The notes: generated from the letters alone by a model not told the origin. DNA of 9,560 nt from a virus (IMGVR_UViG_2529292985_000013:1-9560), one strand, 5' to 3'; positions 370 to 9,560 are shown, counted from the first letter of the stretch. Made by a program: numbers and translations.

Positions 370-399
370 TGTTAGAACATTGATTTTAGTTTTCTAACA
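370..399. promoter_or_regulatory. Palindrome TGTTAGAA-N14-TTCTAACA in the ppp / next-gene intergenic region, overlapping -35-like TTGATT (380-385)
   Basis: Perfect 8-bp inverted arms at 370-377 and 392-399 read directly from the sequence. An 8-bp inverted repeat with a short spacer is expected about 3 times by chance in 9.5 kb, so only its position in a promoter-like AT-rich spacer supports an operator role. Confidence 0.25.
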
Positions 400-5576: not shown

Positions 5577-5956
5577 TGAGGCATATATCACCGGAAGAAC
5601 TTATTGCGCTTCATGATGCGAATATAAGCCGCTACGGCGGCCTGCCGGGAATGTCAGATCCGGGTAGGGCAGAGGCCATTATCGGGAGAGTTCAGGCCAG
5701 AGTTGCCTACGAAGAGATCACCGACCTTTTCGAAGTCTCCGCCACCTACCTGGTAGCTACGGCGAGAGGGCATATATTCAATGATGCCAATAAGCGTACC
5801 GCGCTAAACAGTGCGCTGCTATTTCTACGCCGTAACGGCATACAGGTATATGATTCTCCCGTGCTGGTGGAACTTGCGGTGGGGGCCGCAACTGGTGAAA
5901 TCCCCGTATCTTCAGTAGCGGAAAAACTACGTGAATTATTTGGTTCCAATATTTGA
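5576..5956 (+). CDS. doc: Doc toxin (Fic-fold kinase, death-on-curing)
   Basis: 126 aa coupled to phd. Contains the Doc-type Fic motif [11 protein letters not shown] (HxFx[DN][AG]NKR). Length and sequence match P1 Doc as recalled. Confidence 0.9.
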
Positions 5957-5960
5957 AAAG

Positions 5961-5984
5961 AAGCCCGCTCAACCAGGCGGGCTT
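5961..5984. terminator. Hairpin between convergent transcription units (doc on +, leftward operon on -), probably bidirectional
   Basis: GC-rich 8-bp stem AAGCCCGC (5961-5968) / GCGGGCTT (5977-5984), 8-nt loop. On the - strand it is followed by CTTTTC (better U-tract); on the + strand a T-run appears only further downstream. Confidence 0.55.
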
Positions 5985-6039
5985 CCTACTATCACTCAAT
6001 GATTTTTTCTGCTGTCAGCCAGCTAATTCGGTGATGTTT

Positions 6040-6840
6040 TTAGGCGTCAGCATCCTCCGCTACCTCTGCTTCAACATCAGCCACGGCTTCATCGGACGGT
6101 TCTTCTTTGGCCTGCTCTGCAATCGCCGCACGGCATTTGGCCCTTGCTGTGGCGATTGCTTCAGCACGCACATCATCAGGAATCATTGACGTGATATACA
6201 TATCCAGTTCTTCGGCGCGGAACACTGTTTGGTCCAGATATTCGCGTAGCATCCAGGTAAATTCGAAATCACACGCGATAATCTCTGCGCTACCTTCTGC
6301 ACCATTTGGGAAATGAATAAAAGCCTGTTTAGCCAAACCGATAACACGACATGCGGTTGCCAAAACAGCGGCAACCAGGTTTACATTTTCACACGCTACG
6401 GGCTGATTAACGCCGGAGATTACTCCATTTAACTGTCGGTTATATGGAAGGTAGTTTGAGATGCGTTCTACGCGCCATGTGCCAGTCAGGCTGCCATTCT
6501 TAAAGATAATTGGTGTAACGGATAGCCCAAGCTCGCGTATAAGTCGTTGCGCTATAGCAGGATCATTAAACATGTCTAATGCTACACATTCGAAAGACTG
6601 TGCAAGGGTAAACAGTTCTTCCAGAGAGTAGTCTTTGCCCCTGGCGGTGATGTAACGATGAACGCCGCTTTCTGCATCACTCCATATAGCTACGCCATGC
6701 TCTTCATTCAGCTCTTCATTAAAGCCGAGATACGTCATGATAGTACGTTCAATCGTGTCAAACGGCAGTGACATGTCGGCGTTAACAGCCACCAGCAGGC
6801 CATTACGCAAGCGGTATTGAATTGCTTTAGTATTTTCCAC
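6040..6840 (-). CDS. Hypothetical protein, 266 aa, with strongly acidic Ala/Glu/Asp-rich C-terminal tail
   Basis: Long ORF with GTG start at 6840, 6 nt after the upstream stop, SD-like GGAG 9 nt upstream. No recognisable catalytic motif (no P-loop, no HxH). C-terminal ~40 aa are low-complexity acidic (EEPSDEAVADVEAEVAEDADA). Confidence 0.7.
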   Translation of the reverse strand: MENTKAIQYRLRNGLLVAVNADMSLPFDTIERTIMTYLGFNEELNEEHGVAIWSDAESGVHRYITARGKDYSLEELFTLAQSFECVALDMFNDPAIAQRLIRELGLSVTPIIFKNGSLTGTWRVERISNYLPYNRQLNGVISGVNQPVACENVNLVAAVLATACRVIGLAKQAFIHFPNGAEGSAEIIACDFEFTWMLREYLDQTVFRAEELDMYITSMIPDDVRAEAIATARAKCRAAIAEQAKEEPSDEAVADVEAEVAEDADA

Positions 6841-6846
6841 GTTAAA

Positions 6847-7509
6847 TCACTCCACTACAAACCAGTCACATGCCAGCAAGTCGCCTACAGAAGGCAACCA
6901 CGGAACAACTACACCTTGTGCATTTTTTAAGGCGAAATAAGCACCATACGGAACGAGATCGCCGGGGAAATATCCCTTAATGGCTTCCATTCGTGCCGGG
7001 TACTGTCCTTCAGGAACCAGCCAGCAGAATTGGTTTTCGCCGTTCCACCCGCGCCGGGCAACTTTCTTGCCATCCTTCAGCCACATCAGCGCGTCAGAAA
7101 AGTCGGCTGCTTCAAGGTCGATTTCTTCTTGTAGAGTAGCGATACCGCCAGCAGAAATAGTTACGTCCCTGGCTGTAATGAATGTCACCCCATTGTGACC
7201 TTCAATGCTGAGCGATACCCCATTTTCGGAGGCGTCGTTAACCCGGCTATAGCATTTTTCAAATGCTTTCTCTGGCACATAGACCAGATAGCCATTTTCA
7301 GCAGTGACGAGATATCCTCCTATTTGCGGTCGGAATTTTTCCAAGAACACACCATCAACACGAAGCGTCATTCCTTTTGGCTCAACGACTTCGATACTGC
7401 CAAAAATGGGCGCATAAGCTTTGCCGACAATAACAATATCTTTGATTTTCGATGCCCGAATGATGCTGTGGCATTTGTATTTGGGGAACACCTGAAAAGT
7501 GCTGACCAT
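6847..7509 (-). CDS. Two-domain protein, 220 aa: N-terminal ~135-aa domain of unknown function fused to a C-terminal DUF2829/Tad2-like domain
   Basis: ATG with SD AGGAAGG upstream. The C-terminal ~85 aa (FSDALMWLKDGKKVARRGWNGENQFCWLVPEG...VVVPWLPSVGDLLACDWFVVE) fit my recollection of the DUF2829 pattern (ALxxLKxGKKVxRxGWNG ... WxPSxxDLLAxDW), the family of Thoeris anti-defence Tad2. Confidence 0.75.
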   Translation of the reverse strand: MVSTFQVFPKYKCHSIIRASKIKDIVIVGKAYAPIFGSIEVVEPKGMTLRVDGVFLEKFRPQIGGYLVTAENGYLVYVPEKAFEKCYSRVNDASENGVSLSIEGHNGVTFITARDVTISAGGIATLQEEIDLEAADFSDALMWLKDGKKVARRGWNGENQFCWLVPEGQYPARMEAIKGYFPGDLVPYGAYFALKNAQGVVVPWLPSVGDLLACDWFVVE

Positions 7510-7523
7510 AATCCTTCCTCTAC

Positions 7524-8018
7524 TTAAAACTTTGCGTACTGAAGCGGTGTACGCTTGATTTCAACGCGGTCTTCCGATGTGCTACCAAAGCCACCAGCGC
7601 CTCGCTCTGTTTCATCGAGTTCATCAACTTCTACCAGCGATACCGGTTCAACACGCTCAAAAATGCCTTGCATGACCGCCATTCCTGGCTTGAGGCAAAC
7701 GCCTTCACCACCGGGATCTGTAATCAGTTTTGCCATGATTTCACCGCGATAATCGGAGTCGATAATTCCTACGCAGTTAGCCAGGCGAGTATGTTTTTTG
7801 CAGCCCAATCCGGAACGCGGATAGAGTTTCAGACACCAGCCGGGCGGGATCTCCATAGCCAGTCCGGTGTACACCCACCAGCTTGAGGAAATTGCACCAT
7901 TGCTATCGACACATGGTTTTATTTCAACAGCCTCAAAATCCATCGCCGCCGATCCGGAGGTGGCATAAGCTGGAAGTTTTGCTGCCGGATGTAGGCGTTT
8001 CACTTTTACGTAAATCAT
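7524..8018 (-). CDS. dut: Trimeric dUTPase homologue (deoxyuridine triphosphatase) with divergent motif IV and short C-terminal extension
   Basis: ATG overlaps the upstream stop (ATGA). Motifs: I PAYATSGSAAMDF, II PRSGL, III GIIDSDYRGE, V ERGAGGFGSTS. Motif IV reads GMAVMQ where E. coli Dut has GERIAQ (Arg replaced). About 15 extra residues follow motif V. Confidence 0.85.
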   Translation of the reverse strand: MIYVKVKRLHPAAKLPAYATSGSAAMDFEAVEIKPCVDSNGAISSSWWVYTGLAMEIPPGWCLKLYPRSGLGCKKHTRLANCVGIIDSDYRGEIMAKLITDPGGEGVCLKPGMAVMQGIFERVEPVSLVEVDELDETERGAGGFGSTSEDRVEIKRTPLQYAKF

Positions 8019-8491
8019 TGTTTTTTAGCTCTCTGCGTGAAGGTGTAAACCCGACGTTTGATATGTGGAACGGTAGGAACAGGAATACAGGAACTTTCAA
8101 TAACTCCTTGCTCCTCCAGCGATCGCACCGCCCGCAAGAACTGCGACGTGTCGCCGCCAAACTGGCGGGCATAGGTGCTGCCGTTATGAAGTATTTGAGC
8201 TATTACCCGAGCTTTTGTCTGGCTGTCACGATATGCGAATAGCCGCACGGCCTCTTCTGGCGCAATCGATAACTGATAGCCTTTACCGGCACGGTGTCGA
8301 ATGAATCCATGCGCCAGTAGGTTTTTGAGTTCGTTACGAGTGCGAACAGATCCGTAATCCAGGAAGTGTGGATTGATAACGACTGGCTTAAACCATTCCG
8401 TAGGTGCTTTAGCTAATAGAGCTAACAGCTTCCCGGACAATCCTGGATAGGAAGACGGGTAACAATTCAGAGATGGGTAATAAGTTTTCAC
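8015..8491 (-). CDS. Hypothetical protein, 158 aa, possible winged-helix DNA-binding segments; no internal Met
   Basis: GTG start overlapping the upstream stop (GTGA), preceded by AGGGGG. The protein has no internal Met, so a non-ATG start is obligatory. Segments LLALLAKAPTEW...RTRNELKNLLAHGFIRH and STYARQFGGDTSQFLRAVRSLEEQGVIES look like HTH/winged-helix recognition regions (inference). Confidence 0.6.
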   Translation of the reverse strand: MKTYYPSLNCYPSSYPGLSGKLLALLAKAPTEWFKPVVINPHFLDYGSVRTRNELKNLLAHGFIRHRAGKGYQLSIAPEEAVRLFAYRDSQTKARVIAQILHNGSTYARQFGGDTSQFLRAVRSLEEQGVIESSCIPVPTVPHIKRRVYTFTQRAKKQ

Positions 8492-8844
8492 CGACGCCCC
8501 CTTGCCGGATATCGACCTGCATTAGTATCCGGTGCAATAAAGCCGGTAGTGGGGCGAGTGAAAGCGAGATTAATCTTCTCGACCATAGTGCGATAATTTT
8601 CCTGATAGTGGGCCAGGAGTTTTTCGGCGGCAATGATGGTTACTTTCCGGACGTAGCTTTCTGCTTCCTCCAGATTTCGCCAGTTTTTTTCGAGGGTAAA
8701 CACAGGGACGGCCTCAAGCCCGGTCATGATGCCGAATACAACGACAGCATGACTGTTCTTAACACCAGCGGCGAAGGTTACGGTGTAACCATCCACCGTG
8801 AAGCGTCTTGATTCCGTGATTTGACTCTGCAAAGCACCCTCCAA
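8488..8844 (-). CDS. Small hypothetical protein, ~114-118 aa, first gene of the leftward operon
   Basis: Frame is open only from TTG at 8844 (in-frame stop 6 codons further upstream); no ATG is available. A second TTG at 8832 sits 5 nt after a GGAGGG SD-like sequence and may be the true start. Function unknown. Confidence 0.5.
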   Translation of the reverse strand: MEGALQSQITESRRFTVDGYTVTFAAGVKNSHAVVVFGIMTGLEAVPVFTLEKNWRNLEEAESYVRKVTIIAAEKLLAHYQENYRTMVEKINLAFTRPTTGFIAPDTNAGRYPARGRR

Positions 8845-8905
8845 AATAGGCGAGGGTACTTTACAGCAAAGATATCAATCTAAAAAGATGTGTTAGAAAT
8901 TTAAT

Positions 8906-9560
8906 TTACGAATCCATCAAGCGGCTATTAGCCCCCACAGACACACCGCCACGGCGCAGATACCGCATAAGTGTTTCCGGTTTCTTCCAGGTTCCTTCCT
9001 GCATGATCTCCACCATAGACACCTGCTTTTCAGCCATATCGATAGCGGCCCCGACACGAGCACTATGCCCGGTCCACGTCCGGTATCTCCCTTTGTTTGG
9101 CGCGGCATCCCTTTTATTCAGCAACACCCAGGCGTCGCTGAATATTTTCTCCATTGCAGGTGCAGTAAGGGGCGTTGTCGTAATCCTGGCCTTATTGCTA
9201 CGGTGTATCGGCGGGAACAGCACCGCGTCAGGATGTTCACGAAGCCCGGAAACATCCAGCCAGTCATTCAGCACAGCAGTAGTGCGACGGGAAAGCACCT
9301 TATCAAGCCCGGCGGCGGTCGTTATTGTCTTCGTGTGTGAAATATGTAGCGTGACAGTGTCACCTGTTTGGTCCAGATCTCCTACACGAATACGCGAGAT
9401 TTCCGACATACGCATCAGCGTATTGTATGCAACAAAGAGAAAAGCCCGGTTGCGCTGGTCCACCAGCCGTTCTGACCTGGACAGCAGGACGTCGAGCAGT
9501 TTCAGGTCGTCCCACCGCAACGGTATAGCCTGGCCTGTTCGCTCGCCTTTTTCCGTTGCC
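8906..9560 (-). CDS. Cre-family tyrosine recombinase, C-terminal catalytic part; 5' end beyond the window
   Basis: Frame stays open to the window edge upstream of the track's TTG at 9520. Translation aligns with P1 Cre (recalled) over the catalytic domain: RAFLFVAYNTLMRMSEISRIRV vs RNLAFLGIAYNTLLRIAEIARIRV, GHSARVGAA (His/Arg box), and conserved Trp/Tyr (TWKKPETLMRYLR). Roughly 45-50 percent identity by eye, so it is not P1 Cre itself. Confidence 0.85.
   Translation of the reverse strand, partial: ATEKGERTGQAIPLRWDDLKLLDVLLSRSERLVDQRNRAFLFVAYNTLMRMSEISRIRVGDLDQTGDTVTLHISHTKTITTAAGLDKVLSRRTTAVLNDWLDVSGLREHPDAVLFPPIHRSNKARITTTPLTAPAMEKIFSDAWVLLNKRDAAPNKGRYRTWTGHSARVGAAIDMAEKQVSMVEIMQEGTWKKPETLMRYLRRGGVSVGANSRLMDS

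What the first reader, a model, noticed from the sequence alone, without database searches (positions are those of the whole stretch)
6040..8844. Uncharacterised five-gene leftward cargo operon (dUTPase + DUF2829/Tad2-like fusion + three unknowns) between doc and a Cre-like recombinase
Five tightly packed minus-strand genes (starts/stops overlapping or 6-14 nt apart) sit where, from memory, P1 carries pdcAB-lpa-pacAB-c1-coi-imcAB. Only the dUTPase has a clear enzymatic identity and one protein carries a domain of the Tad2 anti-Thoeris family; the other three have no motifs I recognise. A recombinase-adjacent cargo block mixing a nucleotide-metabolising enzyme with a putative signal-sponge domain is a candidate counter-defence or nucleotide-pool module that may be undescribed as an ensemble.
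Basis: partly seen in the sequence, partly recalled or inferred. Interest (0 to 1): 0.75.

Follow-up and report, generated by a model that had tools for sequence, protein, structure and literature searches.

The report
Accessory operon downstream of Dre recombinase
The five genes are a real operon of a D6-type phage-plasmid that follows the Dre recombinase gene, but they are a mosaic of separately distributed accessory genes (a P1 c8 homologue, a basic orphan protein, a dUTPase, a Tad2-type immune-signal sponge and a P1 IsaA homologue), not a new integrated system.

Summary
Five translationally coupled minus-strand genes (junctions -4, -4, +14, +6 nt) run from 8844/8832 to 6040 and end at an intrinsic terminator (5955-5984).

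The window is a D6-type P1-family phage-plasmid, 100% identical to E. coli pEC213_2 and 97% to phage D6. These genes are already annotated there (orf2/orf3/dut in 2004; orf113-117 in 2018).

The positional reading is wrong. The block does not replace P1 pdcAB-lpa-pacAB-c1; those genes (apart from pdcB) lie beyond dre. It is the operon downstream of the recombinase, like P1 cre-c8-ref-mat.

Gene identities:
- P1 c8 homologue.
- A very basic orphan protein confined to D6-type elements.
- A canonical trimeric dUTPase; the plasmid also encodes Dcd.
- A Dec-like OB-fold domain fused to a Tad2 domain that is 45% identical to ModTad2, a His-ADPR/cUMP sponge.
- P1 IsaA homologue: acidic, with no informative fold match.

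The genes are not an obligate ensemble. One relative lacks dut and another lacks Tad2. In P1-type phages the Tad2-IsaA pair follows ssb. Plasmid counts differ by gene (474, 211, 130 and 126).

A 14-nt motif, 16 copies against about 0.7 expected and placed like P1 C1 operators, lies at the dre/c8 junction. This suggests repressor-controlled early expression.

Tad2 in D6/P1 phage-plasmids has already been reported. Interest is low to moderate.

The parts
8906..9560 (-). 3' part of dre, the Cre-like tyrosine recombinase of D6-type phage-plasmids. It runs off the window end. The five-gene block is its co-oriented downstream continuation.
   Evidence: 99.5% identical to AY753669, which annotates dre, orf2, orf3 and dut. 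It is a 342-aa Phage_integrase gene in all related loci.
8891..8904 (.). Candidate D6-type C1-repressor operator (TGTTAGAAATTTAA on the + strand), in the 61-73 nt gap between the dre stop and the c8-like start.
   Evidence: The motif TGTTAGAAAAYTAA has 16 sites (up to 2 mismatches) in the 92.6-kb plasmid against about 0.7 expected, and 2 in the window against 0.05 expected. Sites lie upstream of c1, lpa, repL and icd and flank ref, as P1 C1 operators do. The site at this junction is kept in D6 and in divergent relatives L007, L012 and L013. Binding by C1 is inferred, not shown.
8828..8865 (-). Conserved RNA hairpin that encloses the Shine-Dalgarno sequence (GGAGGG, 8837-8842) and the TTG start (8830-8832) of the c8-like gene. 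It may control translation or transcript stability.
   Evidence: RNAalifold on four diverged relatives gives 15 pairs at -13.7 kcal/mol, with one pair kept by changes on both sides and several by one-sided changes. With only four sequences the support is modest.
8488..8844 (-). Gene E, homologue of P1 c8 (orf2 of Sauer and McDermott; orf117 of D6). 114 aa from the TTG at 8832, 118 aa from the TTG at 8844. Basic, pI 9.6.
   Evidence: It hits phrog_1968 at E 7.6e-48, and P1 C8 hits the same family at E 6.4e-53. It holds the same slot, directly after the recombinase gene. Pairwise identity is 24% over 85 aa, E 0.056. P1 c8 is annotated 'establishment of lysogeny, putative' and was nonessential in a CRISPRi screen.
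8015..8491 (-). Gene D (orf3 of Sauer and McDermott; orf116 of D6). A 158-aa, very basic protein (pI 10.05, net charge +13) found only in this lineage. Function unknown; probably binds nucleic acid.
   Evidence: phrog_6669 at E 3e-97, function unknown. Only 8 clusters in 5.8 billion proteins, all enterobacterial. Found in 130 PLSDB plasmids. No Pfam, NCBIfam, PADLOC or PDB match. The C-terminal motif VPxPxVPHIKRRxYTxTxRA is invariant. No internal repeat was detected. Charge.
7524..8018 (-). Gene C, dut: trimeric-type dUTP diphosphatase, 164 aa.
   Evidence: PF00692 at E 1e-13. NCBIfam equivalog NF001862 at 118.2 bits against a cut-off of 103. phrog_135 dUTPase at E 1.5e-60. 38% identical to E. 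coli Dut, with motifs PRSG, GIIDSDYRGE and RGAGGFGST present (and direct reading). Found at 90% identity or more in 126 plasmids; the next nearest relatives are about 41% identical.
7237..7509 (-). Gene B, residues 1-91: Dec-like OB-fold domain.
7114..7236 (-). Gene B, residues 92-132: beta-rich linker that aligns with the stalk of Dec. It occurs in two allelic versions among relatives.
   Evidence: The profile alignment to Dec reaches residue 119. The alleles are seen in alignment A3. The model has low confidence here.
6847..7113 (-). Gene B, residues 133-220: Tad2-family (DUF2829) domain of the ModTad2 clade, a predicted sponge for TIR or cyclase immune signals.
   Evidence: PF11195 at E 2e-22. 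Best PDB hits are ModTad2 9eib/8v3e at E 8e-20, then AcrIIA7/HgmTad2 and SPO1 Tad2. 45% identical to ModTad2 over 88 aa with one 1-aa gap. Ligands of ModTad2 are described.
6040..6840 (-). Gene A, homologue of P1 IsaA (orf113 of D6). A 266-aa acidic protein (pI 4.5, net charge -20) with two alpha/beta domains, a long C-terminal helix and a disordered acidic tail. Function unknown.
5955..5984 (-). Intrinsic terminator ending the operon (AAGCCCGC-CTGGTTGA-GCGGGCTT-CTTTTC), abutting the doc stop codon.
   Evidence: Terminator scan and direct reading of the sequence.

Best explanation
The block is the D6-lineage version of the early, non-essential operon that follows the site-specific recombinase gene in P1-family phage-plasmids (P1: cre-c8-ref-mat; here: dre-c8like-D-dut-Tad2 fusion-isaA). 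It is probably transcribed leftward as one unit, under a C1-type operator at the dre/c8 junction. Translation is coupled from gene to gene, and transcription stops at an intrinsic terminator next to doc.

The five products most likely act independently:
1. The c8 homologue contributes to the lysis-lysogeny decision by an unknown biochemistry.
2. Protein D is a small, strongly basic protein found only in this lineage. It probably binds nucleic acid.
3. Dut hydrolyses dUTP. Together with the plasmid-encoded dCTP deaminase it gives a dCTP to dUTP to dUMP route that feeds dTTP synthesis and keeps uracil out of replicating phage DNA.
4. Protein B is a signal sponge. Its ModTad2-like domain would oligomerise and sequester a TIR-derived signal, most likely His-ADPR of type II Thoeris and possibly also cUMP/cCMP of Pycsar. 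That would prevent effector activation. The Dec-like OB-fold N-terminal half acts as an oligomerisation or scaffolding module.
5. IsaA is an acidic protein of unknown role that usually travels with the Tad2 gene.

Shown here: gene structure, the homologies, the distributions and the motif enrichment. Inferred: co-transcription, C1 control, ligand identity, and the roles of D, C8 and IsaA.
For: Identity of the element and prior annotation.

Synteny with P1 cre-c8.

Tight coupling and terminator.

Operator-like motif: enriched about 20-fold over expectation, placed as P1 C1 operators are, and conserved at this junction in diverged relatives.

dUTPase passes the NCBIfam equivalog cut-off. dcd is on the same plasmid.

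Tad2 domain: Pfam E 2e-22, ModTad2 E 8e-20, 45% identity. ModTad2 biochemistry.

Dec-like N-domain is supported by sequence and, independently, by fold search.

Modularity:
- L012 lacks dut and L013 lacks Tad2, while c8-like, D and IsaA-like genes stay.
- In SJ46 the order is ssb, Tad2 fusion, isaA.
- Reference P1 lost the Dec/Tad2 part by a deletion that fused its leader to isaA.
- Plasmid census: IsaA 474, N-domain 211, D 130, dut 126.

P1 c8 and isaA are nonessential for plaque formation.
Against: - No sigma-70 consensus promoter was found between dre and the c8-like gene. The transcription start, and therefore the operon boundary, is not established. Transcription could read through from dre.
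- The P1 C1 operator consensus is absent. Assigning the new motif to the D6 C1 repressor rests only on where the sites lie.
- Ligand specificity cannot be read from 45% identity. Tad2 homologues differ in which signals they bind.
- The model of the Tad2 half was of low confidence, pLDDT below 50. Neither the oligomeric state nor the pocket geometry was assessed.
- IsaA and D have no informative relatives, so their roles are guesses.
- The near-constant adjacency of Tad2 and IsaA could reflect a functional link that this explanation does not capture.
Confidence: 0.7

Rival explanations
1. One reading: the five genes form one integrated counter-defence or nucleotide-pool module, in which the dUTPase, the sponge and the three unknowns cooperate.
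For: The genes are translationally coupled and share one terminator. About 126 of 130 D-carrying plasmids also carry dut. All loci read from the main D6 clade have the same five genes in the same order.
Against: L012 has dre-c8-D-Tad2-isaA without dut. L013 has dre-c8-D-dut-isaA without Tad2. The Tad2-IsaA pair lies in the ssb operon of P1-type phages, without D or dut. Phage D6 itself carries a 146-aa Tad2 gene without the N-domain. The genes occur in 474, 211, 130 and 126 plasmids respectively. No known mechanism links dUTP hydrolysis to sequestration of Thoeris signals.
Confidence: 0.08
2. A mainly regulatory and housekeeping operon with no anti-defence role. C8 and the basic protein D control lysogeny or recombination near rox/dre, Dut serves replication fidelity, and the DUF2829 domain does something other than sequester signals. 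Possibilities include an AcrIIA7-like activity or the 'MW1434 toxin' role used in some NCBI names.
For: P1 c8 is annotated as a lysogeny-establishment gene. D is strongly basic. AcrIIA7 proteins belong to the same Pfam family and are among the PDB hits. NCBI names another DUF2829 protein of this plasmid 'MW1434 family type I TA system toxin'.
Against: The closest solved relatives by a wide margin are ModTad2 entries (E 8e-20, against 1e-10 for AcrIIA7-type). The alignment is colinear over the whole domain. Most experimentally tested Tad2 homologues act as sponges. E. coli lacks type II-A CRISPR-Cas (my own knowledge).
Confidence: 0.12
3. Tad2 fusion and IsaA form a two-gene functional unit, for example sponge plus partner or chaperone, or two complementary anti-defence proteins. 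The other three genes are unrelated neighbours.
For: In SJ46, Ro157c2YLVW, D6 and this window the Tad2-family gene is immediately followed by isaA with a 6-nt gap. IsaA is acidic, net charge -20, as many anti-restriction proteins are.
Against: IsaA occurs without the Tad2 gene in L013 and, through a deletion, in reference P1. It is in 474 plasmids against 211 for the N-domain. IsaA has no fold similarity to known anti-defence proteins.
Confidence: 0.1

Closest known systems
Phage D6 orf113-orf117 region (GenBank MF356679 / NC_050154; immC region AY753669 with dre, orf2, orf3, dut)
   Same: Same genes in the same order, next to dre and doc. 97-99.5% nucleotide identity over most of the block.
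   Different: The window's Tad2 gene has the 130-aa Dec-like N-terminal half, which D6 lacks (146 aa against 220 aa). The 3' end of isaA differs, and the small pdcA-like ORF between doc and isaA is missing.
P1 cre-c8-ref-mat early region
   Same: A recombinase gene is followed, in the same orientation, by a c8-family gene (phrog_1968) and further non-essential genes. Repressor-operator-like sites lie between the genes.
   Different: ref and mat are elsewhere on the D6-type plasmid. Their place is taken by D, dut, the Tad2 fusion and isaA. The operator sequence differs from the P1 consensus.
ModTad2 / MoTad2 (PDB 8V3E, 9EIB), a Tad2-family sponge from a Myroides odoratus prophage
   Same: 45% identity over the whole 88-residue domain with a single 1-aa gap, including the post-beta2 segment that forms ModTad2's extra pocket.
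   Different: ModTad2 is a stand-alone 88-89 aa protein. Here the domain is the C-terminal 40% of a 220-aa protein. Ligand binding has not been tested. Relatives carry two other alleles of the pocket loop, +9 aa and -8 aa.
P1-type ssb - Tad2 fusion (J46_0048) - isaA operon, as in Salmonella phage SJ46
   Same: Protein B is 81% identical to J46_0048 and protein A is 48% identical to SJ46 IsaA. The two genes are adjacent with the same spacing.
   Different: The pair sits in a different operon (after ssb, under Ossb in P1) and at a different genome position. Reference P1 has deleted the Dec/Tad2 part.
Phage L decoration protein Dec (PDB 6E3C)

Membership tests
Tad2 / DUF2829 signal-sponge family (Pfam PF11195) | Domain match above the Pfam gathering score | tested here: met
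   79.9 bits against a cut-off of 25, E 2e-22, residues 136-219 covering profile positions 2-73 of 73.
Tad2 / DUF2829 signal-sponge family (Pfam PF11195) | Full-length colinear similarity to a structurally and biochemically characterised Tad2 | tested here: met
   ModTad2 9eib/8v3e at E 8e-20. 45% identity over 88 of 88 residues with one gap.
Tad2 / DUF2829 signal-sponge family (Pfam PF11195) | Small stand-alone protein of about 90-105 aa | tested here: not met
   The domain is fused behind a 132-residue N-terminal region. D6 itself has a shorter 146-aa form.
Tad2 / DUF2829 signal-sponge family (Pfam PF11195) | Homotetramer with inter-subunit ligand pockets | not testable with these tools
   Only a monomer model was possible, and residues 92-220 had pLDDT below 50.
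Tad2 / DUF2829 signal-sponge family (Pfam PF11195) | Conservation of ligand-contact residues (His-ADPR pocket; cUMP pocket) | not tested
   The residue lists appear only in figures of the papers held. I made no residue-level comparison.
Tad2 / DUF2829 signal-sponge family (Pfam PF11195) | Binds a Thoeris, CBASS or Pycsar signal and rescues phage from that defence | not testable with these tools
   Needs biochemistry and plaque assays.
Trimeric dUTPase (PF00692; NCBIfam NF001862 / TIGR00576) | Score above the curated equivalog cut-off | tested here: met
   NF001862 at 118.2 bits against 103. TIGR00576 at 116.6 bits against 102.55.
Trimeric dUTPase (PF00692; NCBIfam NF001862 / TIGR00576) | Conserved catalytic motifs I-V | tested here: met
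   The alignment to E. coli Dut (38% identity) shows SGSAAMD, PRSG, GIIDSDYRGE, the conserved Q of motif IV, and RGAGGFGST (my reading of the motifs.
Trimeric dUTPase (PF00692; NCBIfam NF001862 / TIGR00576) | dUTP hydrolysis activity | not testable with these tools
   Needs an enzyme assay.
P1 C8 family (phrog_1968) | Membership of the same sequence family as P1 C8 | tested here: met
   Window protein E at 7.6e-48 and P1 C8 at 6.4e-53, both against phrog_1968. The direct pairwise comparison is only marginal: 24% identity, E 0.056.
P1 C8 family (phrog_1968) | Located immediately downstream of, and co-oriented with, the cre-type recombinase gene | tested here: met
   P1: cre 436-1467, c8 1518-1829. 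Window: dre stop at 8906, gene E start at 8832/8844. The same holds in L007-L013.
P1 C8 family (phrog_1968) | Role in establishment of lysogeny | not testable with these tools
   This role is only 'putative' even for P1.
P1 IsaA family (phrog_2326) | Sequence-family membership | tested here: met
   phrog_2326 at E 7.9e-135. 47% identity to P1 IsaA over 224 residues.
Phage L Dec-like OB-fold | Sequence similarity to Dec | tested here: inconclusive
   Dec is the only PDB hit for the N-terminal half, but it is marginal: E 9e-4 over 41 residues as a single sequence, and E 8e-4 over 64 residues with a profile.
Phage L Dec-like OB-fold | Fold similarity to Dec | tested here: met
Phage L Dec-like OB-fold | Trimerisation and capsid binding | not testable with these tools
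   Needs cryo-EM or binding assays.
P1-type C1-repressed early operon | P1 C1 operator consensus ATTGCTCTAATAAATTT near the promoter | tested here: not met
   No match with up to 3 mismatches in the window or in 19 kb of the plasmid.
P1-type C1-repressed early operon | A dispersed asymmetric operator found at c1 and at early and late-activator promoters, and also present upstream of the operon | tested here: met
   TGTTAGAAAAYTAA has 16 sites against about 0.7 expected. They lie at c1, lpa, repL, icd and ref, and at 8891-8904. The site is conserved in relatives.
P1-type C1-repressed early operon | Repressor binding and derepression on induction | not testable with these tools
   Needs EMSA or footprinting and transcriptomics.

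The most novel reading that the evidence does not exclude
The Dec-like OB-fold plus stalk half is more than a passive appendage. One possibility is that it trimerises a tetramer-forming Tad2 domain into a large cage or lattice-like sponge. Another is that it tethers the sponge to the P1/D6-type virion, so that it is available at the moment of infection. Swapping of the pocket loop among three alleles would then retune the sponge to different host signals. In this reading IsaA, which nearly always follows the sponge gene, and the basic orphan protein D would be further, still unrecognised counter-defence factors of a repressor-controlled early anti-defence operon.
Probability: 0.12. Interest if true: 0.65.

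Novelty: new member of a known kind. Interest (0 to 1): 0.3.

Why it matters
The result removes a false lead. The block is not a new multi-gene counter-defence system but an already annotated mosaic operon of D6-type phage-plasmids.

Some practical value remains:
- It points to an enterobacterial member of the ModTad2 clade, the clade known to bind His-ADPR and Pycsar signals, carried by elements common in clinical E. coli, Shigella and Salmonella. This makes anti-Thoeris II and anti-Pycsar activity directly testable in its natural host background.
- It shows that this sponge is usually fused to a widespread, uncatalogued Dec-like OB-fold domain, and that its pocket loop comes in three exchangeable alleles.
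- It yields a candidate operator for the D6-type C1 repressor, which would help map the early regulon of these elements.
- It flags IsaA and protein D as conserved proteins that have no informative fold or sequence relatives.

Tried and rejected
- I tested whether protein D replaces P1 Ref, and protein A replaces P1 Mat, by homology. There is no similarity. ref and mat homologues lie elsewhere on the plasmid.
- I looked for a fold or family for protein D using Pfam, NCBIfam, PADLOC and a PDB profile search. Nothing came up. A PadR hint (E 0.13 in one of eight members) and my impression of a tandem winged helix were not supported by an internal-repeat test (hhalign probability 1.3%).
- I searched for the P1 C1 operator and for sigma-70 promoters. 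Neither was found.
- I tested whether an ACAGTG...TAAAGT element, conserved in relatives upstream of the c8-like gene, is a P1-type late promoter. The spacing differs from P1 LPmat, LPpro and LPlyz, and the pattern does not recur on the plasmid. I dropped this idea. Part of that conservation is explained by the hairpin.
- I looked for papers linking dUTPases to anti-defence and found none relevant.
- I tried to read Sauer and McDermott 2004. It is not held.
- I searched the supplements of the sponge-diversity preprint for this protein's sequence. It is not among the tested homologues.

Full report
**What is there**

The window has five minus-strand ORFs at 8488-8844, 8015-8491, 7524-8018, 6847-7509 and 6040-6840. 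Their junctions are a GTGA overlap, an ATGA overlap, a 14-nt gap with a GAGGAAGGA ribosome-binding site, and a 6-nt gap. An intrinsic terminator (AAGCCCGC/GCGGGCTT followed by CTTTTC, 5955-5984) follows the last gene and abuts the doc stop codon. Each ORF hits a PHROG family at E between 8e-48 and 8e-135, so all five are real conserved genes.

**Where it comes from**

Positions 5900-9000 are 100% identical to E. coli plasmid pEC213_2 (NZ_CP061103) and 97% identical to phage D6. They match 243 PLSDB plasmids from Escherichia, Salmonella and Shigella. The element is a D6-type member of the P1 family of phage-plasmids.

The genes are already annotated. AY753669, the D6 immC region, lists dre, orf2, orf3 and dut. 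The D6 genome lists orf113 ('similar to P1 isaA'), orf114 (DUF2829), orf115 (dUTPase), orf116, orf117 and orf118 (similar to cre).

**Position relative to P1**

In D6-type genomes lpa, pacA, pacB, c1 and the rox site all lie beyond dre. The gene order is lpa, pacA, pacB, c1 (opposite strand), rox, dre, then the five genes, then doc and phd on the opposite strand.

The block is therefore the co-oriented continuation of the recombinase gene, as c8-ref-mat is of cre in P1. It does not replace the packaging and immunity genes.

**The five genes**

*Gene E (8488-8832/8844).* It hits phrog_1968 at E 7.6e-48, and P1 C8 hits the same family at E 6.4e-53. The two align colinearly at 24% identity, E 0.056. 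They hold the same slot after the recombinase gene. Gene E is the c8 homologue. P1 c8 is annotated only as 'establishment of lysogeny, putative' and was nonessential in a CRISPRi screen.

*Gene D (8015-8491).*
- It matches nothing in Pfam, NCBIfam, PADLOC or the PDB.
- It has only eight clusters among 5.8 billion proteins, all enterobacterial.
- It occurs in 130 PLSDB plasmids.
- It is very basic, pI 10.05 and net charge +13.
- It has an invariant C-terminal motif.
- Its function is unknown. Nucleic-acid binding is an inference from charge alone.

*Gene C (7524-8018).* This is a canonical trimeric dUTPase. It scores above the NCBIfam equivalog cut-off and is 38% identical to E. coli Dut with the catalytic motifs present. 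The same plasmid also encodes a dCTP deaminase (record 52873-53490; PF22769 at E 1e-30). The element therefore carries both steps of dCTP to dUTP to dUMP, which is a sufficient and ordinary reason for a dut gene.

*Gene B (6847-7509).* This gene encodes a two-part protein.
- Residues 133-220 are a Tad2-family domain (PF11195 at E 2e-22).
- Its best solved relatives are ModTad2 entries 9EIB and 8V3E (E 8e-20), well ahead of AcrIIA7/HgmTad2 and SPO1 Tad2.
- Identity to ModTad2 is 45% over all 88 residues, with one 1-aa gap.
- ModTad2 sequesters His-ADPR, the type II Thoeris signal. It also binds cUMP/cCMP of Pycsar in a second pocket.
- Residues 1-132 have one PDB sequence hit, the phage L decoration protein Dec: E 9e-4 with the single sequence, and residues 60-123 against Dec 57-119 with a profile.
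- An exhaustive search finds 931 representative proteins with this roughly 90-residue domain. Most are stand-alone small proteins; some are tandem arrays in giant proteins.
- Pfam has no model for the domain. In a sample of 54 relatives, 7 are fused to Tad2-like domains and single cases to other small phage domains.

**Is it an ensemble?**

The evidence says no.
- Diverged D6-type relatives keep dre, c8-like, D and IsaA-like genes. One lacks dut (L012) and another lacks the Tad2 gene (L013).
- Phage D6 has a Tad2 gene without the N-terminal half.
- In P1-type phages such as SJ46, a protein 81% identical to B and an IsaA homologue follow ssb in a different operon, with no D or dut.
- Reference P1 has lost the Dec/Tad2 part. 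The first 59 residues of its 320-aa 'IsaA' are 86% identical to the N-terminus of the SJ46 fusion protein.
- In PLSDB, IsaA homologues are found in 474 plasmids, the N-domain in 211, D in 130 and this dut in 126.
- Some relatives also carry an extra 366-aa gene between isaA and doc.

The block is thus a mosaic accessory region with optional slots.

**Regulation**

The P1 C1 operator consensus is absent, and no sigma-70 consensus promoter was detected.

A 14-nt motif, TGTTAGAAAAYTAA, occurs 16 times (up to 2 mismatches) in the 92.6-kb plasmid against about 0.7 expected. Sites lie just upstream of c1, in the c1-dre gap, upstream of lpa, repL, icd and rdgC, and on both flanks of ref. This mirrors the distribution of C1 operators in P1.

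One copy lies at 8891-8904, between the dre stop and the c8-like start. It is kept at that junction in D6 and in all diverged relatives. I infer that it is the operator of the D6-type C1 repressor and that the block is a repressor-controlled early operon. Binding has not been shown.

Directly after it, a conserved hairpin (8828-8865) encloses the ribosome-binding site and TTG start of the c8-like gene. It has 15 pairs, one of them compensatory, across four sequences.

**Variation in the sponge**

Among close homologues the Tad2 domain has invariant flanks but three alternative sequences for the segment after strand beta2. In ModTad2 this segment builds the extra pocket. All three alleles are nearest to ModTad2. 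The window's allele is closest, and the others carry a 9-aa insertion or an 8-aa deletion there. This is compatible with retuning of ligand specificity, which I did not test.

**Prior knowledge and verdict**

A 2025 preprint already reports 'Tad2 AcrIIA7 (anti-Thoeris)' in 93% of D6-like and 56% of P1-like phage-plasmids. The gene block is in GenBank records from 2004 and 2018.

The finding is therefore a correct observation of an ordinary, already annotated operon. The counter-defence idea holds for one gene only, and the 'undescribed ensemble' idea is not supported.

Four points were not described in the papers and records I could consult:
- the Dec-like domain fused to the sponge;
- the allelic pocket loop;
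- the candidate D6-type operator;
- the lack of informative relatives for IsaA and protein D.

Interest is 0.3.

Noticed in passing
window 386-399 (- strand) and 8891-8904 (+ strand); plasmid NZ_CP061103 (L014/L015), 16 sites: The 14-nt motif TGTTAGAAAAYTAA is about 20-fold over-represented. It sits upstream of c1, lpa, repL, icd and rdgC and flanks ref. It is probably the operator of the D6-type C1 repressor, replacing the P1 consensus ATTGCTCTAATAAATTT. The exact copy at 386-399 lies between the metallophosphoesterase gene and the DUF968 gene.
   Followed up: partly
window 8828-8865 (- strand): A conserved stem-loop encloses the Shine-Dalgarno sequence and the TTG start codon of the c8-like gene. 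Four diverged relatives keep it, with one compensatory pair. It may control translation or act as a stability element.
   Followed up: partly
L015 5873-6490 (NZ_CP061103 52873-53490): The same plasmid encodes a housekeeping-type dCTP deaminase (205 aa; PF22769 at E 1e-30). The element therefore carries both Dcd and Dut, a complete dCTP to dUTP to dUMP branch.
   Followed up: partly
L014 27803-28378 (NZ_CP061103), upstream of lpa: There is a second, distantly related Tad2-like protein on the same plasmid (191 aa; PF11195 at E 3e-10 over residues 103-190; 21% identical to protein B). NCBI names it 'MW1434 family type I TA system toxin'. D6-type elements may thus carry two different sponges.
   Followed up: partly
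L005 4570-5532 (P1 isaA) compared with L006 5048-5893 (SJ46 J46_0048): The first 59 residues of the 320-aa P1 'IsaA' are 86% identical to the N-terminus of the SJ46 Dec/Tad2 fusion protein. The reference P1 gene therefore looks like a deletion fusion that removed the sponge.
   Followed up: yes
alignment A3 (homologues of window 6847-7509): The Tad2 domain has three cassette-like alleles of the segment between WLVP and PYG: EGQYPARMEAIKGYFPGD, DKQGASRLTPIKHAANGELEINFDSP and LAGSVNLHDI. The linker before the domain has two alleles. The flanking residues are invariant.
   Followed up: partly
proteins P0074 (2543 aa) and P0083 (1177 aa): The roughly 90-residue Dec-like domain of protein B occurs as 9-11 tandem copies in giant proteins that also carry Big_9, cadherin-like and CshA repeats. 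Pfam has no model for this widespread domain.
   Followed up: no
L011 8457-9557; also the plasmids of hits H28-H34 (about 1-kb insertion): Some D6-type relatives have an extra 366-aa gene between isaA and doc (phrog_5902, unknown function; weak similarity to the terminase large-subunit family phrog_2). This marks the operon end as an insertion hot spot.
   Followed up: partly
L004 about 1478-1494 (P1, between cre and c8): P1 has ATTGCTATAATTATTTG, a 13-of-17 match to its own C1 operator consensus, in the cre-c8 gap. This parallels the operator-like site at the dre/c8 junction here. It is not annotated as an operator in the P1 record.
   Followed up: no
window 5957-6089: The window differs from phage D6 at the 3' end of isaA (C-terminal tail 266 aa against 258 aa) and lacks D6's small pdcA-like ORF between doc and isaA. 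The + strand ORF 5953-6189 listed here overlaps isaA and is probably spurious.
   Followed up: no
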